DNA of 21,870 bases from Breznakia blatticola (GTDB taxonomy: Bacteria; Bacillota_I; Bacilli_A; Erysipelotrichales; Erysipelotrichaceae), in contig NZ_SODD01000040.1 in the NCBI RefSeq assembly GCF_004365815.1, positions 1 to 21,870 on the forward strand, given 5' to 3'. Below are positions 6,354 to 21,870 of this stretch, one piece after another. The first letter of the stretch is position 1; every line of letters begins with the position of its first letter. The translations under genes and the position numbers were made by a program. The notes beneath the pieces are model-generated. The model made no database searches and had not been told where the DNA came from. It worked only from the letters and a program-made list of their open reading frames with translations.

Positions 6354-6389
6354 GAAATCCAACCTCCTACTTTTTATGTAGTATATAAC

Positions 6390-6423: not shown

Positions 6424-7914
6424 CTATTTTACGACTTCAATCGCTTTTAATAATTGTACATCCAATGTTGCTTTTTCATCATGCCATTTACGTGCACACG
6501 CTGAATTTAAAGCAGTTAAAATATCATCATTGATCGTTTCACTGATTTCAAGTTGGTTGTCTTTTTCAAATTGTTTTAATACATCTGCTGTTTTTTGTGA
6601 ATAGTATCCATCCTGGCGATCTACATCATAGCCTAAGAAATCCAAATAGATTTGTGCATCTTGAATCCCTGCACCAACAGAGTCTACTTTATATGCAGTC
6701 GTATCTGCACTAGGTGCAAAGGTTAATGCTGTTGGTAAATTGACTTCTTCATCTGGTTTCAATCCAACTTTGTTAATTTTCTCTTTGCTTGGAGTTAGCC
6801 ATTCCGCAACTGTAAATTTAAAGATACTTCCATCATTGAAATCAATGGATTGTTGGACTGTACCCTTTCCATAACTTTTTGTTCCTACTAAGGTTGCATC
6901 CAAGTGTTCTTGGAAAGCAGCAGCTAATAATTCTGAAGCACTTGCTGTATTTGCGTTCATTAAGATCGCATAATGATCAAATGTATACTCATCTTCAACA
7001 TTACTTGATTCATAAGATGTTAAATTTCCATTTTTATCTTCTTGGTAAATAACAGTTTTTCCTGAACCCATAAAGATTCCGGCGATATCCAATGCAGTTT
7101 GCACATAACCACCACCATTATTACGTAAATCAAGCACAATACTTTTTACGTTTTGTTCCTTAAATGATTTTGCATATGCAGCTACTTCATCCGCTGTGTT
7201 ATCTGAAAATGAAGATAATTCAATAATACCTACACCATCTCTGACATACCCATAGGCAGTAATGGAAATGGTTGCACGTGTCAACTCTACTGTTTTCACT
7301 TCAGAACCACGTTTGATTTCAACACGTACTTTTGTGCCTTCTTCTCCCATGATCATTTCTTTAATCTTATCGATATCCACATCTGTAATATCAACTCCAT
7401 CGATTTTAGTAATGATATCTCCTTGAATTAATCCACCCTTTTCAGCTGGTGAATCTTTATATACTTTATCTACTAAAATGGTATCATTTTGTCGGTAATA
7501 CTGAATTCCTATTCCTGTTAAGGATCCACTTAATGAAGTCATTAAACTCTCTGCTTCTTCAGCATTTAAATATTGTGTATGTGGATCTGCTTCATTGTAG
7601 TTTGCTAATCCAAAGATACTCTGATCCAGCAAGTATTCACTAATATCTTTTTCATCCTTACCAAAGTACCACTCATTTTGCATGATTTCGTAAATTTCGT
7701 TGAATTTTCTAGATTCACTTTCCAATGATCCATTATTGTTGTTGATCATTGGTGTTGCACTTGTCACATGATTAAATAGGTATCCCCCTAAGAAAAATAC
7801 AATGCATAGTGCAACAGTTAGAATTTGCTTTCTTCGTTTTTTACGTAGTTCTTCTAATTCATCAGGCCATACATGCTTTTCAACCTTGATTTTACGTGTA
7901 TTGTTTTCGTCCAT
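6424..7914 (-). CDS. S41 family C-terminal processing peptidase (Ctp-like) with PDZ and peptidoglycan-binding domains
   Basis: 496 aa. N-terminal TM anchor, PDZ segment (SPAEKGGLIQGDIITKIDG), S41 core (NGGGY, TASASELLAAAFQ, GTKSYGKGTVQ). The C-terminus has a PG_binding_1-like repeat (YLDFLGYDVDRQDGYYSQKTADVLKQFEKDNQL). Confidence 0.9.
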   Translation of the reverse strand: MDENNTRKIKVEKHVWPDELEELRKKRRKQILTVALCIVFFLGGYLFNHVTSATPMINNNNGSLESESRKFNEIYEIMQNEWYFGKDEKDISEYLLDQSIFGLANYNEADPHTQYLNAEEAESLMTSLSGSLTGIGIQYYRQNDTILVDKVYKDSPAEKGGLIQGDIITKIDGVDITDVDIDKIKEMIMGEEGTKVRVEIKRGSEVKTVELTRATISITAYGYVRDGVGIIELSSFSDNTADEVAAYAKSFKEQNVKSIVLDLRNNGGGYVQTALDIAGIFMGSGKTVIYQEDKNGNLTSYESSNVEDEYTFDHYAILMNANTASASELLAAAFQEHLDATLVGTKSYGKGTVQQSIDFNDGSIFKFTVAEWLTPSKEKINKVGLKPDEEVNLPTALTFAPSADTTAYKVDSVGAGIQDAQIYLDFLGYDVDRQDGYYSQKTADVLKQFEKDNQLEISETINDDILTALNSACARKWHDEKATLDVQLLKAIEVVK

Positions 7915-11050: not shown

Positions 11051-11231
11051 AACCTTCACCACTTGCTTTTGCACGATAAATTTGTGCTTTTAATTCATTG
11101 TATGCTGCAAGTGACATCATCACCACTGGTTGACCTTCACTACGTTTGATTAATACTTCATCATGTTCTTCTGTAAGCGCTAAAGCGGACGCTAAATGAT
11201 TCAATAATAATGCTTCTTCAACTATCTTCAT
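11040..11231 (-). CDS. Phd/YefM-family antitoxin-like small protein (N-terminal domain only)
   Basis: 63 aa. TEEHDEVLIKRSEGQPVVMMSLAAYNELKAQ closely parallels E. coli YefM [30 protein letters not shown] (recalled from memory, not aligned). ATG with an AAGGAAGTG SD. The toxin-binding C-terminal tail is absent. Confidence 0.6.
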   Translation of the reverse strand: MKIVEEALLLNHLASALALTEEHDEVLIKRSEGQPVVMMSLAAYNELKAQIYRAKASGEGYED

Positions 11232-11254
11232 TTTATCACTTCCTTCATCCTATT

Positions 11255-11282
11255 ATTATACGCTATTTGTGTGCGGATACAA
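11255..11282 (-). promoter_or_regulatory. Sigma-A type promoter for the yefM-like-tsaC-rpiB-glyA-PPIase operon
   Basis: Minus strand: TTGTAT (11282-11277), 16-nt spacer, TATAAT (11260-11255). It lies about 24 nt upstream of the ATG at 11231. Confidence 0.6.
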
Positions 11283-11397
11283 TTTTGGATATCACTTATT
11301 TTTTTATGTTTTTTACTTGATTTTTAGTAAAAACATTGAAAACATTTTCATTATACACCAAATTGTTACAAATTTTTACATTTTCTTTCATATTCTC

Positions 11398-11425
11398 TTG
11401 CATTTCGCGAATAACTCGATATAAT
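11398..11425 (+). promoter_or_regulatory. Sigma-A type promoter for the ilv cluster
   Basis: TTGCAT (11398-11403), 16-nt spacer, TATAAT (11420-11425). The predicted leader to the ilvB ATG is only about 40 nt. SD AAAGGGGGAA at 11459-11468. Confidence 0.6.
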
Positions 11426-11473
11426 GAGTATTATTATATATAATGTAGTGTAGTTATAAAGGGGGAACAGAAT

Positions 11474-16689: not shown

Positions 16690-17068
16690 CATTTACAATT
16701 ATCTTTTCATTCGAACGAATAAGTTGCATCAATAAACCGATATTAAAACCCACATATCCAAATACAAGTGAAGATATATTTTGATAAACGGATTCCAGTT
16801 CACTATATAGTGGTTTATCTGCAAGATTTACATAGGTAAGACAAATAGCACAGAAGGTAATAGATAGTACAACAATCAGTATCAACAAATTACGATTTCC
16901 TTTTTTTGAAGCATATATCATCGCAATAAAGCATCCAATTAAAGTCAGTTGTATATATGCAAAATTACCTTTACCAACATCTGCTTGAATTCCATATGTG
17001 AAACCTAAAATCAACAACAAACTAACTACGCTAATTATAATTCCTATTCGTTTCATAGATTGATTCAT
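16673..17068 (-). CDS. Hypothetical membrane protein (4 TM)
   Basis: The track start at 17074 is a TTG inside the SD spacer. I prefer the ATG at 17068 (MNQSMKRIG...), which has AGGAGGG 6 nt upstream. Four hydrophobic helices. I recognised no family. Confidence 0.5.
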   Translation of the reverse strand: MNQSMKRIGIIISVVSLLLILGFTYGIQADVGKGNFAYIQLTLIGCFIAMIYASKKGNRNLLILIVVLSITFCAICLTYVNLADKPLYSELESVYQNISSLVFGYVGFNIGLLMQLIRSNEKIIVNEKVST

Positions 17069-17242: not shown

Positions 17243-18382
17243 TTAGTTAAGTAAATTACGTACATAGTTGTATGAGTGTGGAGCTGCTGCTCGCAATGTA
17301 CCTTGATCATAATAGTAATATACGACAAGGTTCGCTAACCATTCATAACGGTTATCGCGCATGTTTCCACTAAATTTGGCAGGTAAGTTATTCTTTTCTG
17401 CTTGGAAGATACCTTCCAAGTTACCTGATGCATTGGTTGCATAATCATACATATGTGTCATTTCATGTAATGCTGTTGTTGAATAATATGCAGATCCATT
17501 TAGCCACAAGCGACCATCGCTGTATGCCATTCCTAAATATGGATATGACAAGCTATTATCGATTGTGATGGTATGTAAGTTCGAGTTATTAAAGATTGCT
17601 GGCAATCCTTGTAGTTCACTCATATATGAGCGAATGACTCCATCACTTACATCATTTCCAACAACAATTTTCCATCCACGTACATACAAATTGTTACGAT
17701 CTAGTGCTGGCGTAGTATAAGTAGGTGCCGCTGGTGTACTAACTGTATTTGTAGGTTCACTATATCCTGTATAACCGCTTTGTTCTTCAGTCGTTTGTTC
17801 TACTTCATTCACTACTACTTGAACACTTTTACGTGATGTATTATGGTTTGCATCTGTTGCTTCCATAATGACTTCGTATGTTCCTGCTTTTGTACTATCT
17901 ACATCATTTTTCACGTATTCAATTGGTAAATCACCATCAACAACATCATAAGCACTTGCTTCTAAGTCATCAGTTGTAAATGTATCACCAACAGATAATG
18001 TAAGATCATTTGCTTTAATTACTGGAGCTTTCGTATCTTTCATTTGTACGTGAACCATATATATATGTTCGGCAATTGGGTTTTCTGCTTCAATTACTGG
18101 ATTACTATCACTAATTGTTTCTACACGATAGATATCATATAATTTAGAATCTGTCCCACGTGCACTTTCGCTAACGATATGGATTACTTTTTCATTGTCT
18201 TGTGCAAACTTCTCTTTAATTTGTTTTTGGATTGTTTCTGGTTTATCATATTCCATTTGCATATCCACTTTTTGTTCAATTGCGTTGTTTGCTAACGCGT
18301 TTTCATTAAAACGATTCAATGAGAACATTGATCCGGATGCTATCATTAACATCACCAATACAATAGTAATTTGCTTTTTCAT
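17243..18382 (-). CDS. Secreted zinc metallopeptidase: signal peptide, DUF5011-type Ig-like domain, PPEP-like (M34/ATLF-like) catalytic domain
   Basis: 379 aa. Signal peptide MKKQITIVLVMLMIASGSMFSL. The Ig-like segment (KAPVIKANDLTLSVGDTF...AYDVVDGDL...STKAGTYEVIMEATDANHNT) fits the DUF5011 pattern. The C-terminal domain has HEMTH (HExxH) and YEWLANLVVYYYYDQGTLRAAAPHSYNYVRNLL. The latter parallels the C. difficile PPEP-1 C-terminus EEFFAESFAYYYLNQDTNSKLKSACPQTYSFLQNL (recalled from memory). Confidence 0.72.
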   Translation of the reverse strand: MKKQITIVLVMLMIASGSMFSLNRFNENALANNAIEQKVDMQMEYDKPETIQKQIKEKFAQDNEKVIHIVSESARGTDSKLYDIYRVETISDSNPVIEAENPIAEHIYMVHVQMKDTKAPVIKANDLTLSVGDTFTTDDLEASAYDVVDGDLPIEYVKNDVDSTKAGTYEVIMEATDANHNTSRKSVQVVVNEVEQTTEEQSGYTGYSEPTNTVSTPAAPTYTTPALDRNNLYVRGWKIVVGNDVSDGVIRSYMSELQGLPAIFNNSNLHTITIDNSLSYPYLGMAYSDGRLWLNGSAYYSTTALHEMTHMYDYATNASGNLEGIFQAEKNNLPAKFSGNMRDNRYEWLANLVVYYYYDQGTLRAAAPHSYNYVRNLLN

Positions 18383-18653
18383 ACATCTCTGACCCCTTTC
18401 GTCATATTCTGTTTCACAATTTAATACTTTTCATACTATATATTTATCATAACCTACATTATTAGTAGGAATTAATATCTAAGGGAAATCCAGTTTAGCG
18501 ACATGGATAGGTCGAATGAATAAATGTGTGTGTTGTGTGTGTTTATAGAGGGATTTTTCACTTAAACCTATATTTTTGGTAGGATTTTAGATTTAAGCAA
18601 TAACCGCTTACACATCGCGGTTTGTAAATAGAGTAACCTTTATTTACATGCAC

Positions 18654-18681
18654 ATTCTAGCATAACTGAGGGGGTAGTCAA
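18654..18681 (-). promoter_or_regulatory. Extended -10 promoter inside array module 3
   Basis: Minus strand: TTGACT (18681-18676), 16-nt spacer ending in TGc, TAGAAT (18659-18654). It starts 9 nt downstream of the module-3 palindrome. Confidence 0.55.
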
Positions 18682-18776
18682 CTATAATGCCTATCATATT
18701 AATAGGAATATAAATCTTAAGAATTACTGCACATTATCAGCAGTCAATTCAAAGGTATCTCTCTCTTTACACTCTC

Positions 18777-18804
18777 ATAATACCACATATTACCCACACG
18801 TCAA
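18777..18804 (-). promoter_or_regulatory. Extended -10 promoter inside array module 4
   Basis: Minus strand: TTGACG (18804-18799), 16-nt spacer ending in TGg, TATTAT (18782-18777). It has the same offset from its palindrome as the module-3 promoter and lies exactly 123 bp from it. Confidence 0.55.
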
Positions 18805-18861
18805 CAGATAAGCCTACAAATTTAGTAGGAATAACATAATTTACCAAAATTGTCTTTGCAT

Positions 18862-18895
18862 ATAAAAAGAAGACTGGATTATTCCATATCTTCTT
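18862..18895 (-). terminator. Rho-independent terminator of the DUF815 ATPase gene
   Basis: Minus strand: AAGAAGA-taTGGAataaTCCAg-TCTTCTT (18895-18867), followed by TTTATATG. The stem includes the last codons and the stop codon of the gene. Confidence 0.7.
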
Positions 18896-20072
18896 GAATC
18901 TTTTGCATCTCAACAAATTGCTTTGCAGTACGTGGACTACGTCCATTATTACGAATCGCAAACATCTCTGCTTGCGTAATTAATTCATCCCCACTGATTG
19001 TCAGTTGGTTTTCTCTTGCTAAACCTTGGACAATTTCTAAATATAAATCTTTGTTAGGTTTTTGGAATGTAATGGTTAGTCCAAAGCGTGCAGCTAAACT
19101 CATTGTTTCTTGAATGGAATCATTGGTGAATAGTTCATCACTATTTCGATCTTTCATACTTTCCTTAACGAAATGACGTCGATTTGTCGTTGCATAGATT
19201 AATACATTTTTTTGACGCCCACCAACACCACCTTCTAAGATGGTCTTCAATGCCACAAAATTATCATCGTTACCTGAGAAACTTAAATCATCAATAAAGA
19301 TAATAAACTTCAAAGGGTTCTTTGCAAGCTCATCCATCAGTTCTGGCAGTTTGTGTAACAACTGTTTACTTACTTCAATTAAACGCAATCCTTTTTTATG
19401 GTATGCATTGGCAATCGCCTTTACTGTTGAACTTTTCCCAGTTCCTGCATCACCATACAGCAATGTATTACTTGCTTTCATTCCTTGTAAGAATGCTAAA
19501 GTATTTTGTTTTACCTGATTTCTTTCACGTTCATATCCAATGAGTTCGGATACATCTTGTGGATCTGGATGTTTAACTGGGAGCAATCCATGTTGTTCTA
19601 AACGGAACACATGATACTTTGCATACATTCCATATCCATCAATTGGTAAACGCTCCATTTTTGTTAGATAGTCTTTTTTGAATTGATATTTCGTGTTTTT
19701 CCATTTCGGTAAGAACCCTGGATATGGTAAGTCTTTCAGTAATTGTTGCGAAGTTAATGAACTCACTTCTTGCAGTACACGAAGTTCATGCAACAAACTT
19801 TGATGCAATACATTTTCAACTGGTTTTTGTTGCGCAATTCTAGATACGTATACATTTTCATTACGCATCACAAACTTATATATGTAACGTGACAAGTTTG
19901 TATCTTTATAAAATAAACTTGCACAGAAATCACAATAGTAATTGATATACGATTCCACTTCTTGATCATTAGCATCTAGTAGTGTTCTAAGCTTTATAAT
20001 TACTTCATCTTGTAGGATACTACGAAAAATCACAAGTGAATTTAAGCGTTTTTGTAATTCCGTAAACTTCAT
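18879..20072 (-). CDS. DUF815-family P-loop (AAA-like) ATPase, function unknown
   Basis: 397 aa. Walker A LLYGDAGTGKSSTVKAI, Walker B FIIFIDDLSF, then ATTNRRH. The ~190-aa N-terminal region is of unknown function. The overall layout is typical of DUF815 ATP-binding proteins. GAGGGGTG SD. Confidence 0.8.
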   Translation of the reverse strand: MKFTELQKRLNSLVIFRSILQDEVIIKLRTLLDANDQEVESYINYYCDFCASLFYKDTNLSRYIYKFVMRNENVYVSRIAQQKPVENVLHQSLLHELRVLQEVSSLTSQQLLKDLPYPGFLPKWKNTKYQFKKDYLTKMERLPIDGYGMYAKYHVFRLEQHGLLPVKHPDPQDVSELIGYERERNQVKQNTLAFLQGMKASNTLLYGDAGTGKSSTVKAIANAYHKKGLRLIEVSKQLLHKLPELMDELAKNPLKFIIFIDDLSFSGNDDNFVALKTILEGGVGGRQKNVLIYATTNRRHFVKESMKDRNSDELFTNDSIQETMSLAARFGLTITFQKPNKDLYLEIVQGLARENQLTISGDELITQAEMFAIRNNGRSPRTAKQFVEMQKIQEDME

Positions 20073-20212: not shown

Positions 20213-21538
20213 CTATCTTTTGTTGAATACTCGTTTCTTTGTGTAAAGAAGTGTTACTGAACTAGCAAACAATAGCATTAAGTAAAAACTTGCATTGCTT
20301 GTATCACTTGTCTCAACACCAGTTGATGGTCTATTAACTACTTCTTCCGGTTTATTTGGCTTTGAAGGATTTTCCGGTTTCACTGGTTCATTTGGCACTT
20401 CAGGTTTGTTTGGTTTTTCAGGTTTTTCAGGAACAGTTGATTCTAATAATAATTCGCCATTAACCTCATCCATAGCCACAGTTCTATTCCAAAAGCTGAT
20501 TCCTAAGTCTTGTGTATTTCCGTTCACTGGTTTATATATCGTATATCTTTCTTCAAGAGTAACACCAGTAATTCTTATAGATACTTTAGATGTAATTGAT
20601 TCTTTCAGTTGCGTTTTATGAATCCTCACTTTAAATCCATTTACAGTAGGCATGTTTTGATTTGAAAAATCACCATTACTATCACTCACTTCGTAAACAA
20701 CATCGCTACTAATCGAAATATCGGTACTTACAAAATCTCCCACTTGACTTACTTCAACCATATTTGAAGTATAGTAGCCAGTTTCTTCATCAAATGTAAA
20801 TGTTAAATCCGTATTATCAAAAGTAAGTTCTGGTTGATTAGACGTATGTGCAAAACCATTATTTTCTAAATCTTGATAAACTGAATTAAGCACATCAATA
20901 AGTTTCAATTGCAGTTGAAACTTTTCATCATCCACAGTATTGTATGTATCCACATATTTTCCTGCGTTATAGTCTACAATGAATTGATCTTTATTTTTTA
21001 CAACTTTCAAAGCATTCTCAAAATCTGCCGATCCGTATGTCTCATTGTTATATAAATATCTCCACAAAGTAAATTGTTTTATATAATACTCAATTTGTTC
21101 TTTTGTAGCAGCTTTTGTTTCTCCAATTTGAATTATATTTTCTAATCCGTCAATACTATACGCATCGAGATCTATTCCCATTATTGCTTTTAGAGCGTAC
21201 CCATATTCATTTTGACTTAAATTTCCATCTAAAACTTTATCAAAAATATAGTCATCTCTTTCGCTTGGGTAAGAAATAGTCGGAGATATACAATATGCAA
21301 TTCCAGTATATGTCTCTCCTTTTTCGTCTTCATACGTCACATTCATATACGCATGATCTTCTCTTGATACACCGCCTCTAGTTTCATCAAGATAATACAA
21401 TCCCATAATAAACGGCCCTCTTTGAGATACCGTCATTTGATCTGGATAGTAGAAACCTGTATCAGCCTCCACAAATCCAAACTGTACTAGCAGCATACAT
21501 GCAGCTATACAGCCAATAAAAAATCTTTTAAGGTTCAT
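20213..21538 (-). CDS. Cell-wall-sorted surface protein with putative thioester domain (TED), Ig-like middle domain and Pro-rich stalk
   Basis: The track start at 21562 is a GTG. I prefer the ATG at 21538 (MNLKRFFIGC...), which has AGGAGG 9 nt upstream. Signal peptide ending VEA/DTG. AYCISP fits the TED Cys motif [YFL]C-phi-[DNEHS], and KQFTLW roughly fits the Gln motif phi-Q-x-phi-phi-W about 72 residues later. Stalk PEKPEKPNKPEVPNEPVKPENPSKPNKPEE. The C-terminus has RPSTG, a hydrophobic helix and KKRVFNKR (sortase-type sorting signal). Confidence 0.65.
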   Translation of the reverse strand: MNLKRFFIGCIAACMLLVQFGFVEADTGFYYPDQMTVSQRGPFIMGLYYLDETRGGVSREDHAYMNVTYEDEKGETYTGIAYCISPTISYPSERDDYIFDKVLDGNLSQNEYGYALKAIMGIDLDAYSIDGLENIIQIGETKAATKEQIEYYIKQFTLWRYLYNNETYGSADFENALKVVKNKDQFIVDYNAGKYVDTYNTVDDEKFQLQLKLIDVLNSVYQDLENNGFAHTSNQPELTFDNTDLTFTFDEETGYYTSNMVEVSQVGDFVSTDISISSDVVYEVSDSNGDFSNQNMPTVNGFKVRIHKTQLKESITSKVSIRITGVTLEERYTIYKPVNGNTQDLGISFWNRTVAMDEVNGELLLESTVPEKPEKPNKPEVPNEPVKPENPSKPNKPEEVVNRPSTGVETSDTSNASFYLMLLFASSVTLLYTKKRVFNKR

Positions 21539-21634
21539 TTCTTCTTTCCTCCTATTGAACACACATAATACACATTTCTATATATTCTTCACACAAAATG
21601 CGCAATATTATATTAGCATATTTGCATATAACTG

Positions 21635-21781: not shown

Positions 21782-21870
21782 TGTCAATTATAAATTAACG
21801 AAAATTCGGAATCAGAGTTGATGAATTTTCGGAATATGAGTTGAAGAAAAATCGGAATTATAAATTGATG
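21779..21870. repeat. At least four tandem 22-24-bp direct repeats (iteron-like / activator-site-like), truncated by the window edge
   Basis: Copies: aaatgtcaattataaattaacg (21779-21800), aaaattcggaatcagagttgatg (21801-21823), aattttcggaatatgagttgaag (21824-21846), aaaaatcggaattataaattgatg (21847-21870). Consensus AAAWTTCGGAAT-N4-5-RTTGAWG. The first (most degenerate) copy overlaps the adhesin -35 element. Confidence 0.65.

What the first reader, a model, noticed from the sequence alone, without database searches (positions are those of the whole stretch)
18451..18843. Four-module structured non-coding array upstream of the protease gene: palindromic box, repeated extended -10 promoter, hairpins with differing stems
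The 496-bp gap between the DUF815 terminator and the protease ATG has no credible ORF but is highly organised. Read on the minus strand, each module has a conserved tail (CTTAAGAT-N-ATTCC) running into a palindrome (CCTAY-N7-RTAGG, at 18813-29, 18690-06, 18567-83 and 18453-69). In modules 4 and 3 a near-consensus extended -10 promoter follows at an identical 9-nt offset (TTGACG/TGgTATTAT and TTGACT/TGcTAGAAT, exactly 123 bp apart). A unique segment follows, ending in a hairpin 1-4 nt before the next conserved tail. The hairpin position is conserved but its stem sequence differs completely: ACTGC/GCAGT (18726-44), AACCGC/GCGGTT (18602-22) and ATCCA/TGGAT (18488-508). Stems that change sequence but keep pairing at a fixed position are what a functional RNA structure, or a family of specificity-varied sites, would look like. 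Candidate readings are a tandem multicopy small-RNA array (each with its own regulator box and promoter, as in the Listeria LhrC clusters), a processed multi-unit transcript, or a stacked-promoter and attenuator leader controlling the protease. I could not match it to any family I know.
Basis: seen in the sequence. Interest (0 to 1): 0.7.

Follow-up and report, generated by a model that had tools for sequence, protein, structure and literature searches.

The report
Repressor-box array before a protease gene
The stretch is a real, conserved control region in front of a secreted protease gene, with two strong promoters and four copies of a protein-binding box that looks like the site of the cysteine-sensing repressor CymR; it is elaborate, but of a known kind.

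Summary
Four CCTAY-N7-RTAGG boxes lie only in this 496-bp gap of a Breznakia blatticola contig (0.04 expected). Two near-consensus extended -10 promoters follow boxes 1 and 2 at one fixed offset. The downstream gene is a PPEP/Zmp1-like secreted metalloprotease.

The whole four-module layout recurs in Erysipelotrichaceae bacterium MTC7, whose protease is 69% identical. Modules 2-3 are 90-94% identical there, against 43% at four-fold sites of the neighbouring gene.

The shared element is not the palindrome but TTAATTCCTAY. It also occurs three times in the leaders of two further MTC7 protease paralogs. With its palindromic partner it sits 8 bp upstream of the -35 of cysK in Oscillospiraceae. It fits the strong half of the B. 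subtilis CymR (Rrf2) consensus, which I recalled from memory. That consensus ranks these boxes top in every locus and picks out the B. subtilis cysK promoter.

Best reading: tandem promoters guarded by four CymR-like operators, followed by a constrained leader RNA. One 13-bp helix has two compensatory changes.

The LhrC-like sRNA-array reading fails, because there are no terminators and only two promoters. Regulator identity, direction of control and transcripts are inferred. Interest is moderate.

The parts
18864..18895 (-). Intrinsic terminator of the DUF815 ATPase gene. The stem AAGAAGA/TCTTCTT overlaps the stop codon and is followed by a T run.
   Evidence: Sequence. A stronger equivalent stem is present in MTC7.
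18808..18834 (-). Operator O1 (27 bp; TTATTCCTAC-N7-GTAGGCTTAT). It ends 3 bp before the P1 -35.
   Evidence: Box. Fit to the CymR consensus: 14/19. Tail plus box is 91% identical in MTC7, while adjacent segments are 50-57%.
18777..18804 (-). Promoter P1: TTGACG, 16-nt spacer, TG-n-TATTAT.
   Evidence: The -35 and extended -10 are conserved in MTC7, while the spacer is 50% identical.
18721..18750 (-). Hairpin H1, the extended stem GAAUUgACUGC/GCAGUAAUUC. No U-tract follows.
   Evidence: -9.5 kcal/mol. Two pairs changed on both sides and two on one side between species, and two pairs are broken.
18685..18711 (-). Operator O2 (ATATTCCTAT-N7-ATAGGCATTA). It is the best CymR-type site, ends 3 bp before the P2 -35, and lies about +59 to +85 of P1.
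   Evidence: 17/19 to the consensus, the single top site of the window. 0.001 such sites are expected per gap-like sequence.
18654..18681 (-). Promoter P2: TTGACT, 16-nt spacer, TG-n-TAGAAT. The spacer ACCCCCTCAG is unusually conserved.
   Evidence: The spacer is 94% identical in MTC7.
18623..18648 (-). Hairpin at the 5' end of the P2 transcript (UGUAAAUAAAG/CUCUAUUUACA).
   Evidence: Inverted repeat I4. -7.2 kcal/mol. All 10 pairs are invariant in three sequences, so they say nothing either way.
18602..18622 (-). Hairpin H2 (AACCGC/GCGGUU).
   Evidence: -8.6 kcal/mol. In MTC7 an A-to-C change lengthens the stem by one pair.
18558..18600 (-). RNA helix 8: 13 bp between the module 3 'tail' (18600-18588) and the sequence after the box (18570-18558). 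AAAUCCUACCAAAAAUA sits in a 17-nt loop.
   Evidence: All 13 pairs form in all sequences. Two pairs are compensatory and two changes are wobble-compatible. Simulated chance is 0.001-0.05. The G-U pairs place it on the minus-sense RNA.
18562..18588 (-). Operator O3 (AAAATCCTAC-N7-ATAGGTTTAA), inside the transcribed leader.
   Evidence: Box. 14/19 to the consensus. Tail plus box is 90% identical in MTC7.
18514..18558 (-). G-free tract rich in C and A (AAAAAUCCCUCUAUAAACACACACAACACACACAUUUAUUCAUUC). It is almost invariant between species.
   Evidence: Sequence. The module 3 body is 93% identical. Any function, such as Rho loading or an anti-SD role, is conjecture.
18488..18508 (-). Hairpin H3 (AUCCA/UGGAU, weak).
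   Evidence: -4.2 kcal/mol. The pairs are invariant; one loop change occurs.
18448..18474 (-). Operator O4 (TAATTCCTAC-N7-GTAGGTTATG), about 70-90 nt before the start codon.
   Evidence: 15/19. The arms are conserved in MTC7, while the 7-nt centre and the following 50 nt are at neutral divergence, 45%.
18380..18400 (-). Shine-Dalgarno GAAAGGGG and the ATG of the protease gene.
   Evidence: 90% identical in MTC7.
17243..18382 (-). The regulated gene: a 379-aa secreted protein with a signal peptide, an Ig-like domain and a C-terminal HEMTH metalloprotease domain of the PPEP/Zmp1 (ATLF-like) type.
   Evidence: Homologs carry PF07737. A family profile hits PPEP-1/Zmp1 structures at E = 6e-5.

Best explanation
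The gap is the transcriptional control region of a secreted PPEP-like metalloprotease gene.

Layout. Two strong sigma-A promoters, P1 and P2, stand in tandem. Each is preceded by a 27-bp pseudo-palindromic operator that ends 3 bp before the -35 (O1, O2). Two more operators (O3, O4) lie in the transcribed leader. O2 is also a downstream site for P1. The operators have one strong, extended half (WAATTCCTAY) and a weak half (RTAGG...). This is the geometry and sequence of sites bound by Rrf2-family dimers, and they fit best the cysteine-metabolism repressor CymR.

Inferred mechanism. When the regulator is active (for CymR: complexed with CysK when cysteine is plentiful), it occupies the four sites. 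It would hinder RNA polymerase at both promoters and block or loop the leader. When it leaves, two near-consensus promoters fire into the protease gene.

RNA layer. The leader from P2 to hairpin H3 is itself under strong constraint and forms at least one helix supported by covariation. A second, RNA-level layer (stability, translation or termination) is therefore likely, but it is undefined.

Shown: the boxes, the promoter sequences, cross-species conservation, the fit to the consensus, the recurrence at cysK and at paralogous protease genes, and the helix covariation.

Inferred: the regulator's identity, repression rather than activation, the cysteine signal, the transcript starts, and read-through.
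For: Boxes and promoters.
- Four boxes against 0.04 expected.
- Two 10/12 extended -10 promoters at an identical offset.

Conservation in MTC7.
- The ortholog locus in Erysipelotrichaceae bacterium MTC7 keeps all four modules in order.
- Box arms are conserved, while the 7-nt centres change at 1-4 positions.
- Identity is 91% for O1 and 90-94% from O2 to H3. Four-fold sites of the adjacent DUF815 gene are 43% identical, and the neutral-looking parts of modules 1 and 4 are 45-58%.

The shared element.
- It is TTAATTCCTAY. Three copies lie in each leader of two further MTC7 protease paralogs, one of them 18 nt upstream of TTGACA-16-TATTAT.
- That upstream copy stays intact between the two paralogs, while the promoter spacer next to it is scrambled.

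Action as DNA.
- A motif-plus-promoter scan of 185,579 species genomes gave 42 hits, near chance. MTC7 had four hits at three loci, all upstream of these protease genes.
- The same scan found TTAATTCCTAT-N7-ATAGG 8 bp upstream of the -35 of cysK in Clostridium sp. CAG:964 and an Oscillospiraceae isolate. Seven metagenome contigs, at least three from human gut, carry it too. The RTAGG partner and the TTA prefix were not part of the query. There the box lies outside the predicted transcript.

Fit to CymR.
- The consensus TAAWNCN2ANTWNAN3ATMGGAATTW is recalled from Even et al. 2006.
- It scores 17/19 on O2, the top site of 43,700 positions in the window. O4 scores 15; O1 and O3 score 14.
- It scores 14-16 on the MTC7 array and 16-17 on the two cysK boxes.
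- Its top site in a 3.9-kb B. subtilis locus lies in the cysK promoter, which I recall as a CymR target.
- The gap holds 7 sites scoring 14 or more, against 0.77 expected.

Geometry.
- TCCTA-N9-TAGGN has the 5-N9-5 form of the Rrf2 operators of HypR and SifR, TGTAA-N9-TTACA (PMC9218516).

Leader RNA.
- Helix 8 has 13/13 pairs kept, 2 compensatory and 2 wobble-compatible changes, and H1 has 2 compensatory pairs.
- No terminator lies between P1 and the start codon.
Against: - The CymR consensus is from my memory. It could not be found in the paper library. Only its ability to pick out the B. subtilis and Oscillospiraceae cysK promoters was tested here.
- No Rrf2 gene is present in any fetched locus. 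Whether Breznakia or MTC7 encodes CymR could not be checked.
- A secreted protease is not a classical CymR target. No cysteine or sulfur gene of these organisms could be inspected for the box.
- IscR-type and CymR-type motifs resemble each other (PMC3828012), so the regulator could be another Rrf2 paralog.
- O1 and O3 fit the consensus only at 14/19, a score that 30 window sites reach.
- Operators ending 3 bp upstream of the -35 could activate rather than repress.
- Operators alone do not explain 90-94% identity over about 240 nt (18484-18721).
- Covariation rests on two lineages only. With strong transition bias, the helix 8 result could arise by chance in about 5% of cases.
- There are no transcript data.
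Confidence: 0.55

Rival explanations
1. The boxes are operators for a DNA-binding regulator that is not CymR or Rrf2. Candidates are a LysR-type or a lineage-specific regulator of secreted and surface proteins. The architecture is the same: tandem promoters plus upstream and downstream sites.
For: - All the evidence for action as DNA applies: fixed position upstream of the -35, conservation of the untranscribed copies, and arms conserved with a free centre.
- The TAT-N7-ATA core also satisfies a T-N11-A LysR-type pattern (from memory).
- Three direct ATTCCGA repeats at 23-24 nt lie upstream of the neighbouring surface-protein gene. They have no palindromic partner, which is unlike a dimeric Rrf2 site.
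- The target genes are proteases, not sulfur genes.
Against: - The independently derived CymR consensus ranks these boxes top and also picks the B. subtilis cysK promoter.
- The only outside occurrence is at cysK, the hallmark CymR target.
- The G/T alternation between ATTCCGA and ATTCCTA falls exactly on the degenerate M position of that consensus.
- The 5-N9-5 geometry matches Rrf2 operators.
Confidence: 0.2
2. The main function is at the RNA level. The gap encodes a long structured leader, or a cis-acting RNA switch, for the protease. The repeated UUCCUAC hairpins are recognition sites for an RNA-binding protein or an RNA partner, and the DNA palindromes are a by-product.
For: - Modules 2-3 are 90-94% identical against 43% at neutral sites, more than operators need.
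- Helix 8 and H1 show compensatory changes, with G-U pairs that only work on the minus-sense RNA.
- Folding z-scores are -3.2 for the window leader and -3.6 for the type B leader.
- In the type B leader the 5' end GUAGGAA pairs with a downstream UUCCUAC, and a right arm UGGG keeps pairing through G-U.
- C. difficile PPEP-1 is itself linked to c-di-GMP riboswitch control (papers listed, not read in detail, plus my own knowledge).
Against: - The motif copies upstream of P1, of the type B promoters and of cysK lie outside the predicted transcripts, yet they are the best conserved.
- The motif sits in a loop in module 3, in a stem in other copies, and in a 4-5-bp hairpin of about -5 kcal/mol at O1 and O4. 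There is no common RNA context.
- The closing C-G pair becomes C-A without compensation.
- No Rfam family matches.
Confidence: 0.15
3. It is a tandem array of independently transcribed small RNAs, as in the Listeria LhrC cluster. Each would have its own regulator box, promoter and terminal hairpin.
For: - Boxes 1 and 2 each precede a strong promoter.
- The two transcribed starts resemble each other (TGTAAAGAGAG and TGTAAATAAAG), and each is followed by a hairpin about 45-75 nt downstream.
Against: - Only two of the four modules have a promoter.
- No hairpin is followed by a U-tract, and the scan finds no terminator in the array.
- H3 is only -4.2 kcal/mol.
- Modules 1 and 2 are 53% identical, and modules 3 and 4 share only tail and box.
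- The module 1 body evolves at a near-neutral rate, 58%.
- The same motif set precedes protease genes at three loci, which fits cis control.
Confidence: 0.07
4. The modules are decaying AT-rich duplication remnants with no function.
For: - Module 1 and 4 bodies diverge at about the neutral rate, 45-58%.
- Modules 1 and 2 look like an old duplication, 53% identical.
Against: - The four-module layout, the box arms and both promoters are kept across lineages whose four-fold sites are 43% identical.
- Modules 2-3 are 90-94% identical.
- The motif recurs at unrelated loci.
Confidence: 0.02

Closest known systems
[quoted passage not shown]
   Same: - A 27-bp pseudo-palindrome with one strong half (ATMGGAATTW, equal to WAATTCCKAT) and a weak half.
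- It sits at or next to sigma-A promoters.
- The consensus ranks O2 and O4 top in the window, and it also picks the B. subtilis and Oscillospiraceae cysK promoters.
   Different: - The target is a secreted PPEP-like protease, not a sulfur-metabolism gene.
- There are four operators in a row at 114-123-bp spacing with two tandem promoters.
- The sites abut the -35 from upstream or lie far downstream, whereas the B. subtilis cysK site lies downstream of the -10.
- An inner CCTAY-N7-RTAGG palindrome is more pronounced than in the B. subtilis site.
- No regulator gene was identified.
Rrf2 operators of HypR and SifR (TGTAA-N9-TTACA)
   Same: The 5-N9-5 near-palindrome geometry, here TCCTA-N9-TAGGN (PMC9218516).
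   Different: The half-site sequence is different, and here one half is extended and the other degenerate.
Listeria LhrC1-5 multicopy sRNA cluster
   Same: Tandem units of about 100-120 nt, each with a regulator box upstream of its own promoter, apply to modules 1 and 2.
   Different: - There are no terminators.
- Only two modules have promoters.
- The units are not homologous throughout.
- The motif is mostly outside or at the edge of the putative RNAs.
- The array is tied to a downstream gene family.
c-di-GMP riboswitch control of the C. difficile PPEP-1 (zmpI) gene
   Same: A PPEP-type protease gene is preceded by a long, structured, regulated leader.
   Different: There is no match to any c-di-GMP or other Rfam family. 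Control here appears mainly through DNA operators.

Membership tests
CymR / Rrf2-type operator | Sequence fit to the 27-bp CymR consensus TAAWNCN2ANTWNAN3ATMGGAATTW (recalled from Even et al. 2006) | tested here: met
   O2 scores 17/19 and is the unique top site of the window. O4 scores 15; O1 and O3 score 14. The gap holds 7 sites at 14 or more against 0.77 expected. Caveat: the consensus could not be verified in the library. It was checked only through its top hit in the B. subtilis cysK promoter.
CymR / Rrf2-type operator | Dyad geometry of Rrf2 operators (5-N9-5 core, about 19-27 bp) | tested here: met
   All four boxes, in both species, read TCCTA-N9-TAGGN. HypR and SifR sites are TGTAA-N9-TTACA (PMC9218516).
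CymR / Rrf2-type operator | Position at or overlapping a promoter of the regulated gene | tested here: met
   O1 and O2 end 3 bp before the -35 of P1 and P2. The type B loci have one copy upstream of the -35 and an inverted copy over the -10/+1 region.
CymR / Rrf2-type operator | The same box occurs upstream of cysteine or sulfur genes (regulon coherence) | tested here: inconclusive
   Met in another lineage: cysK of Clostridium sp. CAG:964 and an Oscillospiraceae isolate.
CymR / Rrf2-type operator | A CymR/Rrf2 gene in the same genome, and binding of the protein (with CysK) to the site | not testable with these tools
   tblastn with an approximate CymR sequence found nothing in the loci held.
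LhrC-like multicopy sRNA array | Every unit has its own promoter | tested here: not met
   Only modules 1 and 2 have one. The sequence at the equivalent positions in modules 3 and 4 is not promoter-like.
LhrC-like multicopy sRNA array | Every unit ends in an intrinsic terminator | tested here: not met
   The only terminator-like call inside the array is box 1 itself, upstream of P1. H1-H3 have no U-tract.
LhrC-like multicopy sRNA array | Units are homologous RNAs sharing seed motifs | tested here: not met
   Modules 1 and 2 are 53% identical. Modules 3 and 4 share little beyond tail and box.
Known riboswitch or leader families (c-di-GMP-I/II, T-box, S-box and others) | A match to an Rfam covariance model | tested here: not met
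   No hit at gathering threshold in the window. At E up to 10 in 18200-19000 there are only hits far below gathering score to unrelated families, such as eukaryotic snoRNA and miRNA. Nothing relevant turned up in the type B leader either.
PPEP / Zmp1-like (ATLF, M34) metalloprotease (the downstream gene) | An HEXXH zinc site in a C-terminal domain homologous to PPEP-1 | tested here: met
   HEMTH is present. Homologs carry PF07737. A family profile hits Zmp1/PPEP-1 chains at E = 6e-5 over residues 304-379. Pro-Pro specificity was not tested.

The most novel reading that the evidence does not exclude
The roughly 165-nt core from the P2 start to hairpin H3 (18488-18648) could be a regulatory RNA in its own right. 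It evolves far more slowly than the flanking genes. It would reuse the operator sequence by displaying AAUCCUAC in the 17-nt loop of a helix supported by covariation. The same sequence would then work twice: as a DNA operator, and as an RNA decoy or pairing site. One possible partner is the GUAGGAA-rich 5' ends of the paralogous protease leaders. Another possibility is that it gates Rho loading on the adjacent G-free CA tract.
Probability: 0.15. Interest if true: 0.7.

Novelty: new member of a known kind. Interest (0 to 1): 0.4.

Why it matters
If correct, this places a family of secreted PPEP-like metalloproteases under a cysteine- or redox-sensing Rrf2 repressor in insect-gut Erysipelotrichaceae. 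The neighbouring sortase-type surface protein, which carries related repeats, may belong to the same regulon. That would link extracellular proteolysis or surface remodelling to sulfur status. It is a different solution from the c-di-GMP riboswitches that control PPEP-1 and its substrates in C. difficile.

The region also shows an unusually dense design: two near-consensus promoters and four operators in 400 bp. The leader is better conserved than the neighbouring DUF815 coding sequence (77% nucleotide identity). This makes a compact test case for combined DNA-level and RNA-level control. It does not reveal a new kind of system.

Tried and rejected
- Known RNA families. Rfam found nothing, in either search mode, on the window or the type B leader.
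- Tandem repeats. TRF does not see the modules; they are too diverged.
- Small ORFs in the gap. Start codons are lost in MTC7.
- Homology between the array and other protease leaders. blastn and nhmmer find only the orthologous arrays.
- Other protease paralogs (L005, L007, L011, L014, L015, L058). None has the motif or a convincing CymR-type site.
- Recombinase core sites or an invertible promoter. The 7-nt centres differ among copies and the copies are direct repeats.
- LytTR-type sites. This was prompted by an Agr-like system next to a paralog in L058. It is rejected because no paired direct repeats at 21-22 bp occur in the modules.
- SigH, SigI, ECF and CodY motifs. Checked by eye; the matches are inconsistent.
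- Type III toxin-antitoxin or CRISPR-like arrays. The downstream gene and the repeat geometry do not fit.
- Metagenome scan. It added only the cysK lineage; the other roughly 80 hits are chance.
- Literature check of the CymR consensus. It failed, because the key papers are not held.
- Near-box upstream of uvrB (6365-6383). It lacks TTCC and is probably unrelated.
Full report
**What is there**

On the minus strand, the window has a DUF815 ATPase gene (18879-20072) and then a 496-bp gap. After the gap comes a 379-aa gene (17243-18382).

The protein has a signal peptide, an Ig-like domain and a C-terminal HEMTH motif. It is 100% identical to a hypothetical protein of Breznakia blatticola, and several homologs carry the ATLF domain PF07737. 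A profile of 13 family members hits the Pro-Pro endopeptidase Zmp1/PPEP-1 structures at E = 6e-5 over the catalytic end. Calling it a protease is therefore justified.

**The observation**

CCTAY-N7-RTAGG occurs four times in the window, all in this gap. Shuffles expect 0.04.

Two sigma-70-type promoters score 10/12 with a TG extension, at 18804-18777 and 18681-18654. They are 123 bp apart, and each -35 starts 8 nt after a box.

The three hairpins are present, at -9.5, -8.6 and -4.2 kcal/mol. There is no conserved ORF and no Rfam match.

Two corrections apply. H1 and H2 differ by a single compensated pair, so their stems do not differ completely. Only modules 1 and 2 align along their whole length, at 53% identity; modules 3 and 4 share just the tail and the box.

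**Relatives**

A Breznakia species with a 98% identical protease has the same gap with a few substitutions.

I scanned one genome per species for the motif plus promoter (ATTCCTAY-N18-20-TTGAC-N14-TGNTANNAT). It gave 42 hits, about what chance predicts. The exception was Erysipelotrichaceae bacterium MTC7, with four hits at three loci.

One MTC7 locus is the ortholog. It has DUF815, the four modules in the same order, and the start of the protease gene. An IS element cuts that gene after about 11 codons.

The two organisms are 84% identical in DUF815 protein, 77% in its DNA, and 43% at four-fold degenerate sites. Against that background the gap divides into two classes.
- Constrained: tail and box of module 1 (91%), the -10 regions (83%), everything from box 2 to hairpin H3 (90-94%), and the ribosome-binding site (90%).
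- Near-neutral: the P1 spacer (50%), the module 1 body (58%) and the module 4 body (45%).

In all four boxes the arms are kept, while the 7-nt centre changes at 1-4 positions.

**What the conserved unit is**

The other two MTC7 loci are paralogous protease genes. One of them is also present on a metagenome scaffold (L009). They have a different, roughly 300-nt leader.

That leader shares only TTAATTCCTAC with the window, in three exact copies (in L041 the third reads TTAATTCCTGC). One copy lies 18 nt upstream of TTGACA-16-TATTAT and two lie in the leader. An inverted copy lies over the -10/+1 region.

Between the two paralogs the leader and coding DNA are almost identical, and the promoter spacer is scrambled. 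The upstream motif block is intact.

The right arm is weak and variable. Some copies lie outside the predicted transcript.

Protease homologs in other Breznakia and metagenomes lack the motif.

**Identity of the box**

The metagenome scan, like the genome scan, brought up one unrelated lineage repeatedly. The sequence TTAATTCCTAT-ATGGTTT-ATAGG lies 8 bp upstream of TTGACA...TGTTATAAT in front of cysK. It occurs in Clostridium sp. CAG:964, in an Oscillospiraceae isolate and in seven metagenome contigs, at least three of them from human gut. The arms are conserved and the centre varies. The TTA prefix and the RTAGG partner were not in the query.

cysK is the hallmark target, and the partner protein, of CymR. 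CymR is the Rrf2-family repressor of cysteine metabolism (PMC3828012).

I recalled the B. subtilis CymR consensus TAAWNCN2ANTWNAN3ATMGGAATTW from Even et al. 2006. I could not find it in the library, so I tested it empirically.
- In a 3.9-kb B. subtilis cysK locus, its single best site (15/19) lies in the cysK promoter.
- In the two Oscillospiraceae loci the best site is the cysK box (16 and 17).
- In the window the unique best site among 43,700 positions is box 2 (17/19). Box 4 scores 15, and boxes 1 and 3 score 14.
- In MTC7 all six sites scoring 15 or more lie in the array.
- The gap holds seven sites scoring 14 or more, against 0.77 expected. A 17/19 site is expected 0.001 times.

The core TCCTA-N9-TAGGN also has the 5-N9-5 geometry of the Rrf2 operators of HypR and SifR (PMC9218516).

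IscR and CymR motifs are similar, so another Rrf2 paralog cannot be excluded. No Rrf2 gene lies in the loci I hold.

**RNA layer**

Operators of 27 bp cannot explain 90-94% identity over about 240 nt (18484-18721).

RNAalifold and pair counting on the three orthologous sequences give a 13-bp helix. It joins the module 3 tail (18600-18588) to the sequence just after box 3 (18570-18558). All pairs are kept in all sequences. Two pairs changed on both sides, and two one-sided changes turn G-U into A-U or the reverse.

Six of the eight substitutions in this 54-nt stretch fall in the helix, and none breaks it. By simulation this has a probability of 0.001-0.008, or about 0.05 under extreme transition bias.

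The compensated positions reach beyond the operator, and the G-U pairs fit only the minus-sense RNA. This favours a real RNA helix that puts AAAUCCUACCAAAAAUA in a loop.

H1 also has two compensated pairs. The remaining helices never vary, so they say nothing either way.

A 45-nt G-free tract rich in C and A follows (18514-18558). Its role is unknown.

No intrinsic terminator separates P1 or P2 from the start codon. Read-through into the protease gene is therefore the expectation.

**Verdict**

The gap is a promoter-operator-leader region. It has two strong tandem promoters, four Rrf2/CymR-like operators (two abutting the -35 boxes and two in the leader), and a constrained, partly structured leader RNA.

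The LhrC-like sRNA array is not supported. The 'stacked promoter and leader' reading is close to right.

The regulator's identity, the sign of regulation, the cysteine signal and all transcripts are inferred. This is a new member of a known kind, with an unusual target and an unusually dense layout.

Noticed in passing
window 21790-21870 (minus strand), upstream of the gene at 20213-21562: Three direct repeats, TAATTCCGAT, TATTCCGAA and GATTCCGAA, are spaced 23-24 nt apart at the very end of the contig. TRF also reports them, as a period-23 array at 21800-21858. They end a few bases before a consensus promoter, TTGACA-17-TATAAT (about 21785-21757). TAATTCCGAT is a 10/10 match to the strong CymR half-site. 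It differs from the protease boxes at the consensus's degenerate position. The gene behind it encodes a surface protein with a signal peptide, a P/K/E-rich linker and an NRPSTG sorting signal. It could belong to the same regulon, and it could be a substrate of the protease.
   Followed up: partly
window 17038-17064 (minus strand): A perfect strong half-site (AATAGGAATTA, 10/10) lies in inverted orientation within the first codons of the 133-aa membrane-protein gene just downstream of the protease. About 0.3 such sites are expected by chance in the window (my rough estimate, not computed).
   Followed up: no
window 6365-6383: A near-box, TACTAC-ATAAAAA-GTAGGA, lies between a Peptidase_S41 (C-terminal processing protease-type) gene terminator and uvrB. 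It lacks the TTCC part of the motif and is probably unrelated.
   Followed up: partly
L039 25-1242 and L004 1-100 (Erysipelotrichaceae bacterium MTC7): In MTC7 the protease ortholog behind the array is interrupted after about 11 codons by an IS element with a DDE transposase. The ends carry the inverted repeats GGGGCTGTGACA / TGTCACAGCCCC. The rest of the gene starts a different contig.
   Followed up: yes
L022 637-939 and L041 2925-3222 (also L009 4700-5000): A roughly 300-nt 'type B' leader precedes two MTC7 protease paralogs. Its MFE z-score is -3.6, and its 5' end UAAGUAGGAA pairs with the second motif copy. A hairpin before the ribosome-binding site differs between the paralogs by pair-preserving changes (CGUGG/CUAUG against CAUGG/CCAUG). 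No Rfam family matches.
   Followed up: partly
L022 940-1000 compared with L041 2866-2925: The two paralogous loci are about 98% identical from the -10 onward, including synonymous sites. The 16-nt promoter spacer and the segment between the motif and the -35 are almost completely different. This suggests gene conversion with a sharp boundary at the promoter.
   Followed up: no
L058 4001-7650: In another organism a short (314-aa) paralog of the protease is followed by a LytTR response regulator and an AgrC-like histidine kinase. The next intergenic region has a promoter (7306-7335) and a terminator (about 7497-7528). Together they would give an RNA of about 185 nt, and three RTAGGAA motifs lie about 120 nt apart. 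It may be an Agr/RNAIII-like arrangement.
   Followed up: partly
window 20213-21562 compared with L002 1-1311: The surface-protein gene upstream of DUF815 in the window is absent from the closely related Breznakia genome. There a PALP-domain gene abuts DUF815 instead, as it does in MTC7. This is a recent insertion or deletion.
   Followed up: no
window 11075-11473: No T-box or other Rfam leader was detected upstream of the ilvB-ilvN-ilvC-ilvD operon, nor anywhere else in the window.
   Followed up: no
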